Shown: positions 151 to 62,784 of the stretch, in pieces
Position numbering within the stretch: the first letter of the stretch is position 1
How the letters are laid out: every line of letters starts with the position of its first letter
Source: Octopus vulgaris
Lineage: Eukaryota
Assembly: GCA_951406725.2 (NCBI GenBank)
Contig: OX597823.1
Span: 77,128,001 to 77,192,000, forward strand
DNA: 64,000 nt
Direction of reading: 5' to 3'
The notes under the pieces: model-generated
Seen by the model: only the letters and a program-made list of their open reading frames with translations
The model's database searches: none
What the model was told of the DNA's origin: nothing
Made by a program: the position numbers and the translations under genes

Positions 151-199
151 ATATATATATATATGTATACATATACATATGTGAATGTGTGTATATATC

Positions 200-409
200 T
201 TTGTGTGTATGTGTTTGTACCCCCAACATCGCTTGACAACCGATGCTAGTGTGTTTACGTCCCCATAACTTAGCAGTTCAGCAAGAGACACTGATAGAAT
301 AAGTACTAGGCTTACAAAGAATAAGTCCTGGGGTCAATTTGCTCAACTAAAGGTGGTGCTCCAGCATGGCCCCAGTGAAATGACTGAAACAAGTAAAAGA
401 GTAAAAGAA
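200..409 (+). mobile_element. SINE family A, 3' half
   Basis: Matches the 3' half of full-length copies (e.g. 31037-31450) ending ...GGTGCTCCAGCATGGCC...TGACTGAAACAAGTAAAAGAGTAAAAGA. Confidence 0.85.
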
Positions 410-6663: not shown

Positions 6664-6780
6664 TGCTTACAGCACTTAGGTTTCCCCAGTGGTCACCCAT
6701 CTAAGTGCTAACTAGGCTTGATGTTGCATAACTTCGGTGATTGGAAAAGAACCAATGCTTTCAACATGATATGGCCGTAA
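6664..6780 (-). pseudogene. 5S rRNA pseudogene (diverged, isolated copy)
   Basis: Reverse complement TTACGGCCATATCATGTTGAAAGC...TCACCGAAGTTATGCAAC...GTTAGCACTTAGATGGGTGACC...GTGCTGTAAGC follows the metazoan 5S consensus over ~117 nt with many substitutions. Confidence 0.85.
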
Positions 6781-7830
<1,050 letters not shown>

Positions 7831-11632: not shown

Positions 11633-13200
11633 TATATATAGATATATATATATATAAATTGACAGAATGCGATAAAGAATCCAAGACTGTGAATAGTTTA
11701 CAGAACATTAATAAAGAGGTCTTACAGCTGTTTCCATGATACTTTATATATCCCTTTATTAGATAACTATGAATTTGTGTGTGTATGTTTGTGTCTGTGT
11801 TTGTCCCCACACCATTACTTGACAACCAATGTTGGTGTGTTTACATCCCCATTACTTACAGATTTGGTAAAAGAGATAGATAGAATAAGTACAAGCCTAA
11901 AAAATTGAAAAGACGGTGCTCCAGTATGACCGCAGTCAAATGGCTGAAACAAGTAAAAGCATAAAAGAATATGGTGAAAGGATGTTACACTTCTATACTT
12001 TAAATTGGAAAGGTAATTCATAGACTTCCTTTGTAACATATTGGAATAGAGTTCAGTGATGTAGCTAATATTCAAAGTACTTGACATAAAGGCAAAATTT
12101 TAGAAAACAGATTTTTGTGATTAATAATGAAATAAAAAAAGCTATTGATAAAAGAATATTTGAACTTCTAGCTCATTGAGTTTCTGAGATATCTGATTGG
12201 ATACACAATCAATCAATTAAACAAACAAAATCAAAATGAGGAAACCTTTTATTTAATTTTAATTTTGTGGTTAGTGATGTTGGTTTTTAGAAGAGAGTAT
12301 GGATGCATAGTATAAAAATAAGCTTGGTTCCTAGAGCTATCACAGGAAGATTTATAAAAGTACAGTGCCAAATCAACATACATTCACACAGAAATGAAGT
12401 GGAAGATCTAAGGACACTTGATACAAATGTAAAGCCAAACAGACTGAAGAATTTCATAGGAGGAATATTTTCAACAACCAAATAAAATTTATGTTATAAC
12501 AAATACGAGAGATCTAACATTTCAGGAAGCCTCCTTCAACAGAGAGAAAGAGATATCAAGTGGTTTTAAAGGATGGATCACTTGGGGTGAGAGAGAGGGA
12601 GAGTGAAAGAGATTCTAAGTTTTAATGGATGGAGGCTGTAATGGTCAGGGAGAGGAGGAAATATAAGGAACATCAACAAGTTTCAAAACTATCGAGAGAT
12701 GGAAGAGAGATAAAGACATAGAAATGAGAGAGGGATACCTAGATTCAGACCCACATACATATGTATGGATGTAGCTATAAATGTGGTGTACACAGTTATA
12801 TATTATGTATAAAAACTATACTAAACAAAACAAGAGCACTCAGAGAGCACAAACCTCTGCCAAAGTAACACCAGAATCCTCTCAATGAATAGCCAGAGAT
12901 GATTTTTAAAATGAGAATATCTGAAACAAACTCGACTGCTCTCACAAATGAAAGTACTAAAAATGAACCCAGCCGTTCTCAAAAATTAAAAAAACCGGAA
13001 AAATAATCCAGAAGATAATTTTCCTGTGTCTATGTTTTCTTTGGTTGTATAATGTCAATTTAACGTGACAGTAGGGGATTACACCACCGCTGTTTAGCCC
13101 TAGGAAGCATCGACGCTTCCTGATGGCTTTGACACATTTATTCCTGTGTCCTTATATATTTACGAAGGGGAGACAAACACCCCCAGCAGCCAGGCCTGCA

Positions 13201-13247
13201 TCTAGAGAAACACATGTTTCAGAATCTTTGTCCATCATCGGTCTAGA
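13201..13247 (-). ncRNA. Degenerate hammerhead ribozyme (unit 1)
   Basis: tctaga-CCGATGA-tggacaaagattct-GAAAC-atgtgt-TTC-tctaga. Core U4 is changed to C and helix III is mismatched. Confidence 0.65.
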
Positions 13248-13273
13248 GTAGCAGAAGCCCGCCAGCCGCAGAT

Positions 13274-14935
13274 GAATCTTTATTATAGGCACAATGGCCC
13301 GAATGAAGAGGGGACATAACAATACAGGACATGGGGTACATATAACAAAAAAAAAAAGGATGGTATGACAATGAAATACCTATAATTAATTAAATGGAAT
13401 GGCTTACGAGCTACCCCCAAAGCTCGCAGTTTCATTTACAATTACAATTGTGCTGTCCGGGGCGTTCATCCATAATATAATCGAGTAACTCCTCCTGTTC
13501 TATAACACCTGGCAAACTGTCATATCGAATGTATTGCATTACGCGTACAGCTATATTTGAATACACATTTATTAATTTCATTACTGTCTCTCTTTCTACA
13601 ATTGCCGCCTTTATTTGGTCATCGAATATCTTCAGGCTCAGTTTTACTCTAGTTAGATTTTTCATATTCACTAATTTCTTCTCAATTTCTTTGTCCTTTT
13701 TGTACAACATTATAGCTTTGAGATTTCTTCCTTTTGGCCTCCGTCCTTCCTTACATATTTTCAGTTGTTCTTCCATTTTTCTTTCCCATTCTTTCTCTTC
13801 CTCCCACATTGAAACTTCACTCACTTTTGTTTCTGTATCTCTCTCTTTGTGCGTTTGATCCCCTATCTCGTCGGTAGACTTCTTTTTGGCTTTTTCCTTT
13901 TTTTGTGCTTTCGGTGGTGATTCCACCTGCGTTCTCTTTCTATCCTCTTTTTCTTCTGTTCTTTCCTTTTCTTTCTCCTTCACCAACTCGTCACCACTTT
14001 CCACATTATCTGTAGTCACGATTTCTTCTTCCGCTTGCAATTCCACATTCGCCTTTTGTAACTCCTCTGTCAAAGCCTCCAGTGTTATCGTCTTCTCTTG
14101 TACTTCTCTCAGCGGACACATATCCTTCATGTGACCTCTAATTTTACATTTGTAACACACTGGGGGTCTCCCCTTCACCACGACTCTGAGACATGTCTCG
14201 TCGGGGAAGACCAACTCCTCTGGGATGTTATACAGGTCTGGCATGGTTATGTGAACCAAAGCCTGCACCGCATAACCCCACCAATTTATTTCTTTCGACT
14301 TTTCTACCTTCAGTATGTGAACGCTCTCTTTGCAGTTGAATATTATTGCCGCTACAATTCTTTCCGTGTCCAGTTCCGATGAAATTTTACTAATCCGTAT
14401 TCTCACTGCTCTTTTTCCACAATAGCTAGGTAGTAACACCCATTTTTCGGATTTCAATACTGTCGTGGCGTTTCTCTTCGCTTCGTCTTTGTTTTCAAAA
14501 CGAATGTCTACTGTCGCATATTTTCTACCTCTATTGTAGAAGGTAGTTTTTCCTTTAATTTCCTGTAGACACTTCTCAATTTCTTCCACCTCTGCTACTT
14601 CTATTCTCTTCGAAACCACACTCCACGTTCTGTACGTTATAATTCTCTTCTCAGCTTCTTTCACTTCGTCTTTAGGTGGTGTGACCCTCAGACAATCACC
14701 TTCCTTCTTGATGCTGTCGTAGTACTTCCTCAAACTCTCCTTCTCGATAACTATTTCTTCCACCTGTAGTTCGCTCGCAACCAGGCCTCTGCCTGTTGCT
14801 ACCACATAAGTTTGAGCTTGCATACCCAACAAAAACTCCAACAATTCACCACGCCGTAACAACTTCCAACAACAAAATCCAACTCACAACCGCAATACAC
14901 AATAACCATAATACAAAATAACCAACACAAACACT
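13274..14935 (-). mobile_element. Full-length ORF1-only non-LTR element (Tx1/L1-related, HAL1-like), 1662 bp
   Basis: 17-bp TSD GCCCGCCAGCCGCA(G/A)AT at 13257-13273 and 14936-14952; 5' end AGTGTTTG; single ORF; 3' end ...GTGCCTATAATAAAGATTC; no RT or endonuclease. Confidence 0.8.
13432..14823 (-). CDS. Gag/ORF1p-like nucleic-acid-binding protein with CCHC zinc knuckle (463 aa from the first ATG)
   Basis: Uninterrupted ORF with C-x2-C-x4-H-x4-C (CYKCKIRGHMKDMC), preceded by an RRM-like region and followed by a K/E-rich tail. This is the layout of Tx1/L1 ORF1. Confidence 0.8.
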   Translation of the reverse strand: MQAQTYVVATGRGLVASELQVEEIVIEKESLRKYYDSIKKEGDCLRVTPPKDEVKEAEKRIITYRTWSVVSKRIEVAEVEEIEKCLQEIKGKTTFYNRGRKYATVDIRFENKDEAKRNATTVLKSEKWVLLPSYCGKRAVRIRISKISSELDTERIVAAIIFNCKESVHILKVEKSKEINWWGYAVQALVHITMPDLYNIPEELVFPDETCLRVVVKGRPPVCYKCKIRGHMKDMCPLREVQEKTITLEALTEELQKANVELQAEEEIVTTDNVESGDELVKEKEKERTEEKEDRKRTQVESPPKAQKKEKAKKKSTDEIGDQTHKERDTETKVSEVSMWEEEKEWERKMEEQLKICKEGRRPKGRNLKAIMLYKKDKEIEKKLVNMKNLTRVKLSLKIFDDQIKAAIVERETVMKLINVYSNIAVRVMQYIRYDSLPGVIEQEELLDYIMDERPGQHNCNCK

Positions 14936-15236
14936 GCCCGCCAGCCGCAAATATCTGTCCCGACTTCGTAAATATATATATCTAATTTTCAGTGAAGTTT
15001 ATTCACTGATTACCAAAATCAGAAATATTAAATTTCTAAATATCTCATAGAGATATGTACGGTGATGGGGCGATAGAATGGTTGTATACTGTCAATTTAA
15101 CGTGACAGTAGGGGATTAAACCACCGCTGTTTACCCCTAGGAAGCATCGATGCTTCCTGATGGCTTTGACACATTTATTCCTGCGTCCTTATATATTTAC
15201 GAAGGGGAGACAAACACCCCAGCAGCCAGGCCTGCA

Positions 15237-15283
15237 TCTAGAGACACACATGTTTCAGGATCTTTGTCCATCATCAGTCTAGA
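15237..15283 (-). ncRNA. Type I hammerhead ribozyme with intact catalytic core (unit 2)
   Basis: TCTAGA-CTGATGA-tGGA caaaga TCCt-GAAACA-tgtg-TGTC-TCTAGA: 6-bp helix I, short helix II, 3-bp helix III, GUC cleavage triplet (15245-15243). Confidence 0.8.
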
Positions 15284-16089
15284 GTAGCAGAAGCTCACCA
15301 GCTGCAGATATCTGTCCCAACTTCGTAAATATATAAATCTAATTTTCAGTGAAGTTTATTCACTGATTACCAAAATCAGAAATATTAAATTTCTAAATAT
15401 CTCATAGAGATATGTACGGTGGTGGGGCGTACATATCTCTATGAGCACCCACTAAACCGTATTAGTCATAAGGAAGAAGAGAAATCTAACATTTCACAGA
15501 GAATCCTTCATCACAAAAAAATAATAATAGTAAATGCCCTGATGCAGTACCAGGCAGTGGCTCTCATGGCTTCTGATCTTAACTGATTGGAAGTGTTATC
15601 ATGTACATTGTTTTGTCTAGGTAGAAAAGATGGGCTACAGCAAATATTCTGCTCAATACCACAGATTTGCTTGTCAGTTGTTTGACCTTAACCAGTTGAC
15701 CATGTCCATTGTGGCTGATGATATTTGCATCTCTGATCCCGAGCAGAAGTAGTTGGGAGCATCATAGCCATGTGTTGAGAGGCATTCTTTGGGGTTTGAA
15801 TAATTCACCTCTGGAAACATGGGTGTTTCATTTAACATACTTAAACAACCCTTATTCAGGGACCTTTTGAGCAGGATGGGTTACTCAACCAGAAAAAAAT
15901 TCTAACTGGGCCCCACCTGCAAGGTCATGTGCTGTTTATCTTGATATGAGATCACCATGTCATGCATATATGTTTGTGATGCATGTACCTAGTGTAGCCT
16001 TATCAGATAGATAGTCATGATGGGTATACTGGGCTTTGTATATTTTACCCCAGTGGCACTTCAATGGCATGCACTGCTCTCTCACTCAA

Positions 16090-31036: not shown

Positions 31037-31450
31037 GGCGTAGGAGTGGCTGTGTGGTAAGTAGCTAGTTTACAAACCACATGGTTCCAGGTTCAGTCCC
31101 ACTGCATGGCACCTTGAGTAAGTGTCTCCGACTATAGCCTTGGCTGACCAAAGCCTTGTGAGTGGATTTGGTAGACAGAAACTGAAAGAAGCCAGTCGTA
31201 TTTATGTGTATATATATGTATGTGTGTGTATGTGTTTGTGTGTCTGTGTTTGTCCCCACAAGATTGCTTGACAACCGATGGTGATGTGTTTACATCCCTG
31301 TAACTTAGCGGTTTGGCAAAAGAGACCAATAGAATAAGTACTAGGCTTACAAAGAATAAGTCCCGGGGCCGATTTGCTTCACTAAAGGCAGTGTTCCAGC
31401 ATGGTCACAGTCAAATGACTGGAACAAGTAAAAGAGTAAAAGAGTAAACG
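31037..31450 (+). mobile_element. tRNA-headed SINE family A, full length (others: 20910-21210-, 22323-22630+, 32655-33320-, 38005-38395-, 39780-40186-, 46218-46625+, 50110-50530-, 54575-55050+, 62245-62660-)
   Basis: More than 12 colinear copies in the window with a Pol III-like head, central microsatellite and (GTAAAAGA)n tail. Confidence 0.9.
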
Positions 31451-34280: not shown

Positions 34281-34653
34281 TAACTATTAATATCCAGTAA
34301 CGCTGCTGTAATCTCCTTTAGAGAGACTTAGTAATTTTAATATTTCTATTATTGAAAACAAGTGGATGTATTCCACTGTAACTAGGTAAATAAAATCTTC
34401 GAACAGACGGTCAGTAGCGACACCTGCGGGTCTGACTACGCTGCATTGATAAAGGGCAACAACCCTGAAACATGTCTGCAGATGTCTGACTAGCAAGGTG
34501 AAACGGCTGACCTCCCTGTTCGAAGGTTGTAATGGACGCAGGTTCGTGTGTCATATAGCTAGCTAGAGGCGGTGGCCTCTTGGAGCTAATCAGCGACAGC
34601 TTTAGTCTTATATTTATAGATTGCCATATTAGTATGGCGATAACTATTAATAT
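34281..34653 (+). repeat. 360-bp retrozyme-like monomer with 13-nt terminal redundancy; diverged relative of the 357-bp unit
   Basis: TAACTATTAATAT at 34281 and 34641; colinear similarity to the reverse complement of 15079-15429; HHR at 34441-34481 CTGCA-tTGATaA-AGGG caacaa CCCT-GAAAC-at-GTC-TGCAG. Confidence 0.75.
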
Positions 34654-34837
34654 ATATATATATTGTTTGTTTTTTCTCGAGCCATGCCCGGCTAAGGTCC
34701 CATCCAGGTTCCCCACCTGTGTGTGTGTGACAGGTTCCTTTCAGTTTCTGTCTACCAATTGAATGCTGCTTCAAGTTTCTCACCTCTCTCACCTTCCCCC
34801 TTTCTCTCTCTCCTCTGTCTATCTATCTGTCTAACTG

Positions 34838-36808: not shown

Positions 36809-38639
36809 TACATGCAATTCATCAGTATAGGGCTATAGTGTTCTCCAATGTTTCAAAGCAATAAGGATTAAATAATCATGTTAGAATTTTTCAGAACAAA
36901 TTAAGAGTGAATAAATATGTTGTTACTTGAATTTTCACTGTTCAGCAGGTATCATCATCATCATCGTTTAGCGTCCGCTTTCCATGCTAGCATGGGTTGG
37001 ACAGTTCAACTGGGGTCTGGGAAGCCAGAAGGCTGCACCAGGCCCAGTTTGATCTGGCAATGTTTCTACGGCTGGATGCCCTTCATAACGCCAACCACTC
37101 CGTGAGTGTAGAGGGTGCTTTTTACGTGCCAGACGAGTCTGGCAAATGGCCACGATCAGATGGTGCTTTTTATGTGCCACTGGCACTGGGGCCAGGTGAG
37201 GCTGGCAACGGCCACGAACAGATGGTGCTTTTTACGTGCCACCGGCACGACTACGAATGGATGGTGCTTTTTACGTGCCACCGGCTTTCTAGTTTAGCAG
37301 ACATCAGCAAATAGTTTCTCTGCTGATTCCTATAAACTTGAGCTGGTGCTTTTGTTTGACCCATCTTGGTAACTTTGGCTGATTAGACACACAATGAGGT
37401 TGAAACACTAAAGTGTCTCAAAACTCCCTTTTAACTCCCTATCAAACCAGTGAATCACATGTGTATGAACGCACATCATCAGAAGGGAGAAACAAAGAGA
37501 TGCTCTTTGATGGGGAAAAGCTACAGCAAATAGAAATCAACTTGGAATCTGCTAAGACATATTAAGAATAAATAGATATATTATTATTATTGTAGAGTAT
37601 ATTTTTCATTTTGAATTGAGTGTTTGTCTTGGAATTCAGTTTTCACACCACTATGGTGGGAAATATTACATAATAGGTGGAAGCCATTGCAACTAGATGT
37701 TGTAATATGTTTATATAAATATATGTTTATTATATTTATAAATACACCACAACAGTGATTTAAAACAATCCTTGCCTGAAGATACCAGTTGTTGGAAAAT
37801 CTAGTCACGAGATAAATATTCAATTTAAAGAAACCACATTCATATGCACACTTCTATATGCATATATATATATGCATGTGTATATGTGTGTATTTTATAC
37901 AAATATACAAAGTTTCTCTTGATGATTGTGGTAATAACGTGGATAGAAACTATATTGAATAATGACAAATTTCCTTATACTAACCACATTAGGATCAAGC
38001 ATATACTCTTTTACTCTTTTACTTGTTTCAGTCATTTGACAGCAGCCATGCTGGAGCACCACCTTTAGTCGAGCAAATCGACCCCAGAACTTATTCTTTC
38101 TAAGGCCAGTACTTATTCTATCGGTCTCATTTGCCGAACTGCTAGGTGACGGGGACATAAACACACCAGCATTGGTTGTCAAGCAATGCTAGGGGGACAA
38201 ACATAGACACACAAACATACACACAAATATATACATATGTACAATGGGCTTCTTTGAGATTCTGTCTACCAAATCCACTCACAAGGCTATATAGTAGAAG
38301 AGACTTGCTCAAGGTGCAAAGCAGTGGGACTGAACCCGAAACCATGTAGTTGGTAAGCAAGCTACTTACCTTACCACACAGCCACTCCTATGCCTATATT
38401 TAATTTTTTTTTTGTCACACACTTAATCGTCTTCAGCCACAAACACAGATATAGAATAGAAAAAGAACACACAGACACACAAATATACATTCTCTCTCTC
38501 TCTCTCTCACGCACACACACACATTTTATGGGTTTGTGTGAGTTATCATGTCTTGTTCAAATGGCTGCATTAGAAAGTGATGAGTTAGTAATTATTTCAA
38601 GTATTTATTTACACACATATATGTGCAACCACATTTATT

Positions 38640-39781: not shown

Positions 39782-40185
39782 CTCTTTACTCTTTTACTTG
39801 TTTCAGTCATTTGACTGCGGCCATGCTGGAGCACCGCCTTTAATCAAGCAACTCGACCCCGGACTTATTCTTTGTAAGCCCAGTACTTATTCTATCGGTC
39901 TCTTTTGCCGAACCGCTAAGTGACGGAGATGTAAACACACCAGCATCGGTTGTCAAGCAATGCTAGGGGGACAAACACAGACACACAAACACACATACAC
40001 ATACATATATATATATATATACATATATACGACAGGCTTCTTTCAGTTTCCGTCTACCAAATCCACTCACAAGGCATTGGTCGGCCCGGGGCTATAGCAG
40101 AAGAAACTTGCCCAAGATGCCACGCAGTGGGACTGAAACCCGGAACCATGTGGTTGGTTAGCAAGCTACTTACCACACAGCCACT

Positions 40186-61951: not shown

Positions 61952-62784
61952 CACTCAGTTAATTGACAATCCAGCTGATACAATACATGATGCTTGTTTT
62001 GTTATGTGATGGTATATTGCTAATGCAAAATACCATATTCTGATCACCGATTTGTTAAAAAGGATGTATCTAAAGTTCTGACTGTGTTAGATCCTAAAAC
62101 ATGAAGCTTCAGTGACTAAAGGCAGAAGTACCAGTTTCACACCATACAACAAAGAAACAGGTCTCCTAGATCAGATTTATGAAGTTCTTTTGCATTTAGT
62201 TTGTCTTTTTACATATCTACAAACACACAAGACTACCCTCAACTCTTTTAATCTTTTACTTGTTTCAGTCATTTGAATGTGGCCATGCTGGAGCACTGCC
62301 TCTAGTCGAGCAAATCGACCCCAGGACTTACTCTTCATAAGCCTAGTACTTATTCTATCAGTCTCTTTTGCTGAACCTCTAAGTTACGGGGACGTAAACA
62401 CACCACCATCGGTTGTCAAGCAATGGTGGGAGGACAAACACAGATACATAAACATATACACACACACACACACATATATATATGCATATATACGATGGGC
62501 TTCTTTCAGTTTCCGTCCACCAAATCCACTCACAAGGCTTTGGTCAGCCCGAGATTATAGTAGAAAACACTTGCCCAAGGTGTCACGCAGTGGGACTGAA
62601 CCCGAAACCATGTGGTTGGTAAGCAAACCACAGAGCCACTGCTATGCCTATACCACACAGCCGATAATATTTGTTCAGTATGTTGTCTTTAATATATCTT
62701 TGAAAGAAAATATGTAGCAGTAATGTGCTCGACAACGATGACTTCCACTGAATAGAATTGTGAGGGTTGCTACTAATGAAACAC

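What the first reader, a model, noticed from the sequence alone, without database searches (positions are those of the whole stretch)
34281..34653. Diverged 360-bp relative keeps every hairpin by compensatory change and has circular-template-type terminal redundancy
Seen: colinear with the reverse complement of the 357-bp unit, with sequence changed but pairing kept. Helix I is CTGCA/TGCAG vs TCTAGA/TCTAGA; helix II AGGG/CCCT vs GGA/TCC; GTGGA..TCCAC vs CAGTGAA..TTCACTG; CTTCGAACAG..CTGTTCGAAG vs ATATATTTACGAAG..CTTCGTAAATATAT; GAGGC..GCCTC vs GGAAGCATCGATGCTTCC; TTGCCATA..TATGGCGA vs TGTCA..TGACA. GGACGCAGG..TGTGTCA is shared. A 13-nt direct repeat 360 bp apart resembles the unit junction of the other family. 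Inference: selection acts on a ~360-nt multi-branched RNA fold, and this copy is one unit plus 13 nt copied from a circular or multimeric RNA.
Basis: partly seen in the sequence, partly recalled or inferred. Interest (0 to 1): 0.85.

Follow-up and report, generated by a model that had tools for sequence, protein, structure and literature searches.

The report
Hammerhead retrozyme with conserved RNA fold
This is one copy of an abundant non-coding jumping repeat that carries a predicted self-cutting RNA motif (a known kind, the animal retrozymes); a distant sister family keeps most of the same predicted fold and the same two insertion end points, which suggests that a Penelope-type enzyme copies a small, likely circular, RNA from two set start sites.

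Summary
The observation largely holds. 34281-34640 is one 360-nt unit of a family with about 3,200 exact hits of an 18-mer in the genome. It holds a type I hammerhead motif (U3:A8 core, predicted cut 34476/34477). It is 58% identical to the 357-nt family B and keeps the fold by compensatory change (15 double changes against 6.3 expected), but four helices are not kept in register.

The 13-mer is unit sequence, not a target duplication. Copies are not randomly permuted: 3' ends sit at two fixed sites next to (TA)n, 5' ends are scattered, arrays reach 5.5 units and run through the cut site without scars. Head-to-head arms use one site each in 63 of 65 loci. An intact Penelope-like element here shows the same end pattern and core variant.

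Verdict: a non-LTR retrozyme, a known class, likely mobilised by Penelope machinery; the circle is inferred, not shown. This scan already noted similar 360- and 485-nt families on other DNA of this genome. Side result not found in earlier notes: a gag-only element inserts 21-38 nt upstream of hammerheads in several such families.

The parts
34281..34640 (+). One 360-nt unit of retrozyme family A (subfamily A1), 42% G+C
   Evidence: modal unit 362 nt
34641..34653 (+). Start of the next unit (13 nt); this copy's 3' end, at the family's first fixed end site S1
   Evidence: 46 of 133 runs end in the 10-base bin of S1
34654..34663 (+). (AT)5 tract next to the 3' end
   Evidence: 111 of 133 runs are followed by a microsatellite
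34434..34486 (+). Type I hammerhead motif: helix I 34441-45/34477-81 with a TAC bulge and extension, core TTGATAA 34446-52 (U3:A8), helix II 34453-56/34463-66 with 6-nt loop, GAAA 34467-70, palindromic CATG 34471-74; predicted cut between 34476 and 34477
   Evidence: the matching stretch of family B hits Rfam Hammerhead_HH9 at E 0.0023, below the gathering score; the A copy has no Rfam hammerhead hit
34394..34528 (+). Long predicted rod extending helix I (34394-34436 with 34484-34528), largely kept in B
   Evidence: 21 of 34 pairs kept in the three rod helices, 23 in B's own fold within 2 positions
34336..34352 (+). Sequence-conserved A/U motif (12 nt identical in A and B) ending at the second fixed end site S2 (unit position 72); not used as an end by this copy
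   Evidence: (62 of 133 runs end in the 10-base bin of S2)
34412..34430 (+). Unoccupied site matching the place where a gag-only element is inserted in other family A copies
14941..15429 (-). Family B retrozyme array (partial + full 357-nt unit + partial), hammerhead core 15276-15270, predicted cut after 15243
13274..14936 (-). 1.66-kb gag-only element (476-codon frame 13432-14862, CCHC knuckle) splitting the B array, with a 17-nt duplication
13040..13273 (-). Continuation of the family B array after the insertion, with a second hammerhead core

Best explanation
This is a protein-free, hammerhead-bearing repeat of the animal non-LTR retrozyme kind, whose RNA likely cuts itself to a 360-nt monomer, likely closes into a circle, and is likely copied back into the genome by a Penelope-like reverse transcriptase. 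Shown: the motif, the conserved fold, the copy number, two fixed 3' end sites about 59 nt apart next to (TA)n, scattered 5' ends, seamless arrays, head-to-head arms that use one site each, and a young intact Penelope-like element with the same end pattern. Inferred: transcripts of tandem copies self-cleave (probably as dimers, since helix III is a palindrome), a host ligase closes the monomer, the enzyme nicks A/T-rich DNA, the two DNA ends prime at S2 and S1 on the same RNA, and copying runs round the circle until it drops off. The window copy is a single arm primed at S1 that stopped 13 nt past one turn, or a longer array later shortened by whole units. With one hammerhead it is probably a dead-end copy.
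For: Core conserved as a hammerhead predicts: 152 of 157 fetched A cores read TTGA-N-AA with all four bases seen at the free position 7, and helix III changes from CATG to CGCG, another palindrome, in subfamily A3. U3:A8 cores and dimer cleavage are described for Penelope hammerheads (PMC4209133). Covariation A to B and A to A3. 70 of 133 runs cross the cut site (98 crossings); 2 start within 12 nt of it, 3.9 expected; 0 indels in 764 bases around 95 junctions, 1.9 expected. A3 lengths fall without a step at one unit (50, 16, 7, 3, 2, 2). Units and arms of one locus match better than different loci (A3 0.34% and 0.45% against 2.11%). Two-arm loci pair S1 with S2 in 36 of 36 and 63 of 65 over all fetched loci, B 6 of 7. 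The resident 781-codon RT + GIY-YIG element has a TTGATAA...GAAACATG core and ends at 0 or +35 next to (TA)n, mixed in 3 of 3 two-arm loci with both ends at those sites, the 'tail' and inverted-copy pattern described in PMC8557442.
Against: No cleavage, expression or circle was shown. No sequence similarity between A or B and the 10 Penelope loci tested, so the partner is unidentified. The A motif has no Rfam hit. 29 of 32 B cores have C at position 4, which may weaken cleavage (recalled). Eight of nine Xenopus retrozyme dimers did not cleave in vitro. In the older A1 subfamily within-locus identity is only modestly better than between loci (2.8% and 3.2% against 3.9%). 20 of 85 A two-arm loci have an end at neither site. 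Beyond one turn A1/A2 copies end faster (0.009 per base against 0.0033), which the simple model does not explain without later unit loss.
Confidence: 0.72

Rival explanations
1. Same element and same Penelope enzyme, but the template is an uncleaved linear multimer transcribed from a tandem array; the hammerhead is weak or rarely acts and no circle is needed.
For: Explains seamless crossings and both end sites equally well; minimal Penelope hammerheads cleave poorly in vitro; 8 of 9 Xenopus dimers inactive; arrays of 5 or more units exist as possible sources.
Against: Variants fixed across all units of an array (the L236 array is 99-100% identical within, 94-96% to other A3 loci; concordance 0.80 against 0.07) need a one-unit bottleneck followed by re-expansion; the catalytic core is under strong constraint.
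Confidence: 0.2
2. The unit is a detached pseudo-LTR of a Penelope element that inserts as a short 3' fragment and is then expanded by DNA-level unequal crossing-over (the route discussed by Li et al. 2026).
For: Proposed in bioRxiv 10.64898/2026.07.22.740005; homogeneous arrays would follow; many other hammerhead cores of Penelope type occur in the genome.
Against: No parent pseudo-LTR found among 10 loci; no Penelope ORF fragment continues the 5' side of A or B copies (tblastn hits in 4 fetched loci only, two of them the same place); multimers occur in both inverted arms and lengths fall smoothly.
Confidence: 0.06
3. An ordinary SINE or insertion with a 13-nt target-site duplication and a chance A/T-rich fold.
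For: The 13-mer is A/T-rich and flanks the copy; no empty allele could be examined.
Against: The 13-mer lies inside tandem arrays at every junction; no target duplications; fold z -6 to -8 and covariation beyond similarity.
Confidence: 0.02

Closest known systems
Metazoan non-LTR retrozymes (Cervera and de la Pena 2020, PMC7229834: coral 220-240 bp, Mytilus 350-390 bp, axolotl 330/350 bp; Li, Clavereau and Pollet 2026, bioRxiv 10.64898/2026.07.22.740005)
   Same: Type I hammerhead in each unit, unit of 360 nt, tandem copies, G+C under 50%, strongly self-paired RNA, no long ORF, Penelope elements in the same genome.
   Different: Core is U3:A8; no target duplications seen; two fixed end sites and head-to-head arms are not described in the parts of these papers that I read; circle and cleavage shown there, not here.
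EN+ Penelope-like elements, Neptune type (Craig et al. 2021, PMC8557442; Cervera and de la Pena 2014, PMC4209133)
   Same: Partial tandems, inverted 5'-truncated copy, a 'tail' at one end only, (TA)n preference, hammerhead with palindromic helix III and the U3:A8 variant.
   Different: No RT or endonuclease; tail 59 nt (55 in B) against 30-40; hammerhead of the canonical build (4-bp helix II, bulged helix I) rather than the minimal build with long helix II; no sequence similarity to the Penelope 3' ends tested.
Rfam Hammerhead_HH9 (RF02275)
   Same: Family B aligns over the whole model, including the helix I bulge and loop 2; A has the same layout.
   Different: 21 bits against a gathering score of 52; A gives no hit.

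Membership tests
Non-LTR retrozyme | Type I hammerhead in each unit | tested here: met
   sister family hits HH9 weakly; A has no Rfam hit
Non-LTR retrozyme | Tandem units of 150-450 bp | tested here: met
   360-365 nt units, arrays to 5.5 units; this copy itself has one hammerhead only
Non-LTR retrozyme | No protein, G+C under 50% | tested here: met
   only antisense or flanking ATG frames of 64 codons or fewer; G+C 42%
Non-LTR retrozyme | Highly self-paired monomer | tested here: met
   circular z -6.3 (A), -6.9 (A3), -7.7 (B), 64-67% paired
Non-LTR retrozyme | Target duplications longer than 4 bp when present | tested here: inconclusive
   1 of 26 single-arm copies, control 8%; (TA)n would hide them
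Non-LTR retrozyme | Self-cleavage of the transcript | not testable with these tools
   needs in vitro transcription
Non-LTR retrozyme | Expressed as linear and circular monomer RNA | not testable with these tools
   only contigs were on hand
Non-LTR retrozyme | No PBS or PPT | not tested
   no tRNA-primer search was run; no LTR layout in the copies mapped
Penelope-mobilised non-autonomous element | Partial tandem and inverted 5'-truncated copies | tested here: met
   50 of 77 loci have head-to-head arms
Penelope-mobilised non-autonomous element | Tail extension at one end only | tested here: met
   63 of 65 A loci with both ends at S1 or S2 are mixed; tail 59 nt, longer than the 30-40 described
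Penelope-mobilised non-autonomous element | Microsatellite bias | tested here: met
   111 of 133 3' ends; whether (TA)n is target or added by the enzyme is not settled (5' flank ends in (TA)n in 10 of 26)
Penelope-mobilised non-autonomous element | 3' sequence similarity to an autonomous partner | tested here: not met
   no blastn hit at E 0.05 in 10 Penelope loci; most families of the genome were not tested
Autonomous Penelope-like element | RT and GIY-YIG reading frame | tested here: not met
   no tblastn hit in the window

The most novel reading that the evidence does not exclude
The 360-nt fold is a scaffold that presents one RNA circle to a Penelope enzyme at two set priming sites, kept in place across families only 58% alike, so that both ends of the cut DNA copy the same circle; this would explain the long-unexplained Penelope 'tail' and inverted copies. 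In addition, a gag-only retroelement targets a position defined by the hammerhead (21-38 nt upstream of its core) in at least five diverged retrozyme families and then rides their Penelope-driven copying: a parasite of a parasite.
Probability: 0.4. Interest if true: 0.78.

Novelty: new member of a known kind. Interest (0 to 1): 0.52.

Why it matters
Copying of hammerhead circles by Penelope enzymes was proposed in 2014 and 2020, and Craig et al. call the origin of Penelope tandem/inverted structures an open mechanistic question. Here a short substrate, a naturally diverged sister with the same two end sites, and a young intact Penelope element occur in one genome, so the proposal can be tested directly, with the A/B differences showing which helices and motifs matter. 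The class itself is known and this scan has met it repeatedly in this genome.

Tried and rejected
Target-site duplication: rejected. Random circular permutation of copies: rejected for 3' ends (108 of 133 in two 10-base bins), true for 5' ends. A special one-turn product: a surplus of 5' starts near unit positions 348-8 appeared among the top-scoring hits but not in 82 pattern-selected long copies; I treat it as a selection effect. Linear self-cleaved monomer as template: rejected. Expression: no RNA holder listed; contigs of four guessed-RNA runs cover the unit and show the unit junction, but that junction exists in genomic arrays and contigs cannot show circles. Empty allele: no contig of four runs bridges the locus. 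Rfam: no hammerhead hit for the A copy. Penelope partner by sequence: none in 10 loci. Gag-like protein: no homologue at E 0.001 among 8,000 scored candidates. Literature searches for an octopus or cephalopod retrozyme, for twin priming in Penelope elements and for a LINE-type element targeting hammerheads gave no direct description; the supplement of PMC7229834 could not be read, bioRxiv supplements are closed, and Repbase is not searchable here, so prior description cannot be excluded.

Full report
The observation. The window comes from a 2.8-Gb animal genome rich in microsatellites; a cephalopod is likely, but that is inference and was not tested. The 13-mer stands at 34281 and 34641. With both units read from the predicted cut site they align end to end (score 208 against 75.8+-11.8 in 300 shuffles; reverse complement 67) at 57.6% identity. 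The plus strand folds at z -7.6, the minus strand at -5.2; circular folds give -6.3 for A and -7.7 for B over 40 shuffles.

Covariation. I permuted B's letters among columns with the same A letter, which keeps identity and composition. Of 120 predicted A pairs 109 map to B: 78 are kept (62.2+-3.8 expected), 15 change on both sides (6.3+-2.2), and 61 recur in B's own fold within two positions (6.6+-6.5); 0 of 120 permutations reach these values. A to A3 gives 5 double changes against 1.4; A3 to B gives 10 against 6.0, with 5 of 100 permutations as high, so that comparison is weaker. On 18 natural monomers 19 of 50 consensus pairs show a double change; the structure was derived from these rows and the rows form only about four lineages. 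31 pairs break, and four helices (two in the arm ending in the TTGCCATA hairpin, the A/U hairpin at 34335-34357 and its enclosing helix) are absent from B's fold in register. A 12-nt A/U motif at 34336-34347 is identical in A and B but pairs differently in their predicted folds, which suggests a sequence signal rather than a helix (inference).

The ribozyme. 34441-34481 has the layout of a type I hammerhead with a U3:A8 core. That covariant is described for Penelope hammerheads, as is dimer cleavage through a palindromic helix III (PMC4209133, parts 1-2 of 4 read). 152 of 157 A cores in the fetched loci read TTGA-N-AA, with all four bases at the free position; subfamily A3 swaps CATG for CGCG, again a palindrome (overlapping loci may count a few cores twice). 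B hits Rfam HH9 at E 0.0023, below its cut-off; A has no hit. 29 of 32 B cores have C at position 4.

Copies. An 18-mer of A has 3,180 exact hits, the reversed control 0; a hammerhead pattern has 1,342 hits against 49. I mapped 133 runs in 77 loci: 49 loci from the first 100 pattern hits on contig 1, and 28 of the 40 scored loci; five runs in two duplicated segments were dropped. 3' ends fall in two 10-base bins (46 at S1, unit position about 8-13; 62 at S2, position 72), and 111 are followed by a microsatellite. 5' ends are spread round the unit. 70 runs cross the predicted cut site, 98 times in all; 2 start within 12 nt of it against 3.9 expected, and there is no indel in 764 bases around 95 junctions. 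A linear cut monomer is therefore not the template. Arrays reach 2,004 nt, and A3 lengths fall without a step at one unit. Among 82 copies longer than one unit there is no excess stopping just past one turn, so unit + 13 is one draw from a spread, or a shortened array. No target duplication is seen.

Two arms. 50 of the 77 loci have head-to-head arms. In 36 of 36 with both ends at S1 or S2, one arm uses each (p 1.5e-11 against independence); 14 have an end elsewhere. Over all fetched loci: 63 mixed, 2 S2/S2, 0 S1/S1, 20 with another end; in B 6 mixed, 1 same, 7 other, at the homologous positions 178 and 233 nt after the cut (A: 178 and 237). Arms and tandem units of one locus share variants: A3 mismatch 0.45% and 0.34% against 2.11% between loci; the older A1 3.2% and 2.8% against 3.9%. 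This fits one RNA primed by both DNA ends (inference).

The likely enzyme. GIY-YIG hits include many copies of an intact 781-codon frame with RT and GIY-YIG domains; a CxxxxCxxC linker suggests the Neptune type (PMC8557442, passages). Its 3' repeat has a TTGATAA...GAAACATG core and ends at 0 or +35 next to (TA)n; 3 of 3 two-arm loci with both ends at those sites are mixed (30 loci chosen by the 3' end plus 6). Partial tandems, inverted copies, a one-sided 30-40-bp tail and microsatellite bias are the described Penelope marks. There is no sequence similarity between A or B and 10 Penelope loci, so this family is a candidate only.

What is known. Non-LTR retrozymes are hammerhead tandem repeats expressed as circles in coral, mussel and axolotl, with Penelope elements proposed as the mobiliser (PMC7229834, parts 2-4 of 6 read; supplement unreadable). 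A 2026 preprint links them to Penelope pseudo-LTRs in vertebrates and found 1 of 9 dimers active (parts 1-3 of 5 read). PMC4640811 was seen as a search listing only. Searches for a cephalopod retrozyme or for two-site priming found no direct description. Earlier notes of this scan reached the same reading for 360-nt and 485-495-nt families on other DNA of this genome (read after my); they are not independent support.

Side result. The B array in the window is split by a 1.66-kb element with one gag-like frame (CCHC knuckle; Atlas look-alikes are CCHC and ZCCHC3-like proteins, a lead only) and a 17-nt duplication. Its 3' end lies 21-38 nt upstream of a hammerhead core in families A1, A2, B and at least three others, and where both junctions were in view the duplicated bases are the host family's own. 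Read by eye, 25 of 41 distinct 3' junctions in the first 100 rows are so placed, 3 more carry a retrozyme duplication before a tandem copy, 1 is unclear and 12 are elsewhere. Among the 30 best of 141 protein hits, 16 are so placed by pattern, 5 more by eye, 3 are tandem and 6 are not; no long frame other than a further tandem copy follows within about 900 nt. Some composites show head-to-head arms, so Penelope-driven amplification inflates the counts, but the different families imply several independent insertions.

Verdict. A real, structured, hammerhead-bearing retrozyme: a new member of a known kind. Penelope-type mobilisation is well supported by the insertion marks; cleavage, expression and the circle are untested. 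Interest 0.52.

Noticed in passing
window 13274-14936 (-); loci L339-L423: Gag-only CCHC element that inserts with 15-17-nt duplications 21-38 nt upstream of hammerhead cores in at least five retrozyme families, family A included; tandem copies at the same site; no RT frame seen. Resembles target-specific Tx1-type LINE derivatives (recalled, not tested).
   Followed up: partly
G000:C7:33737444: One 3' junction of the gag-only element runs into sequence that looks like the start of U2 snRNA (recalled likeness, not searched).
   Followed up: no
L187 (G000:C16:20835000-20841000) and L239-L268: Young Penelope-like family: intact 781-codon RT + GIY-YIG frame, an upstream frame of up to 479 codons, 40 scored copies 100% identical over the last 243 nt, two 3' end sites 35 nt apart.
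   Followed up: partly
L164-L169, L216, L218, L220, L236: Subfamily A3 (about 82% identical to the window copy) is the youngest, with arrays up to 5.5 units and helix III CGCG.
   Followed up: partly
L350, L352, L354, L367, L374, L385: Further diverged hammerhead retrozyme families (74-81% to B, or unaligned) that could extend the covariation analysis.
   Followed up: no
family B: 29 of 32 B cores carry C at hammerhead position 4 and most a U-U pair at the base of helix II; the window's full unit has U4. Effect on cleavage unknown.
   Followed up: no
A1/A2 copies longer than one unit end about three times faster than the overall rate; possibly loss of whole units with age.
   Followed up: no
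window 6664-6782 (-): 5S rRNA-like sequence (Rfam 68.7 bits).
   Followed up: no
window 160-408, 31199-31445, 38003-38366, 39857-40140, 62240-62603 and others: A dispersed repeat family of about 250-290 nt in both orientations, probably a SINE.
   Followed up: no
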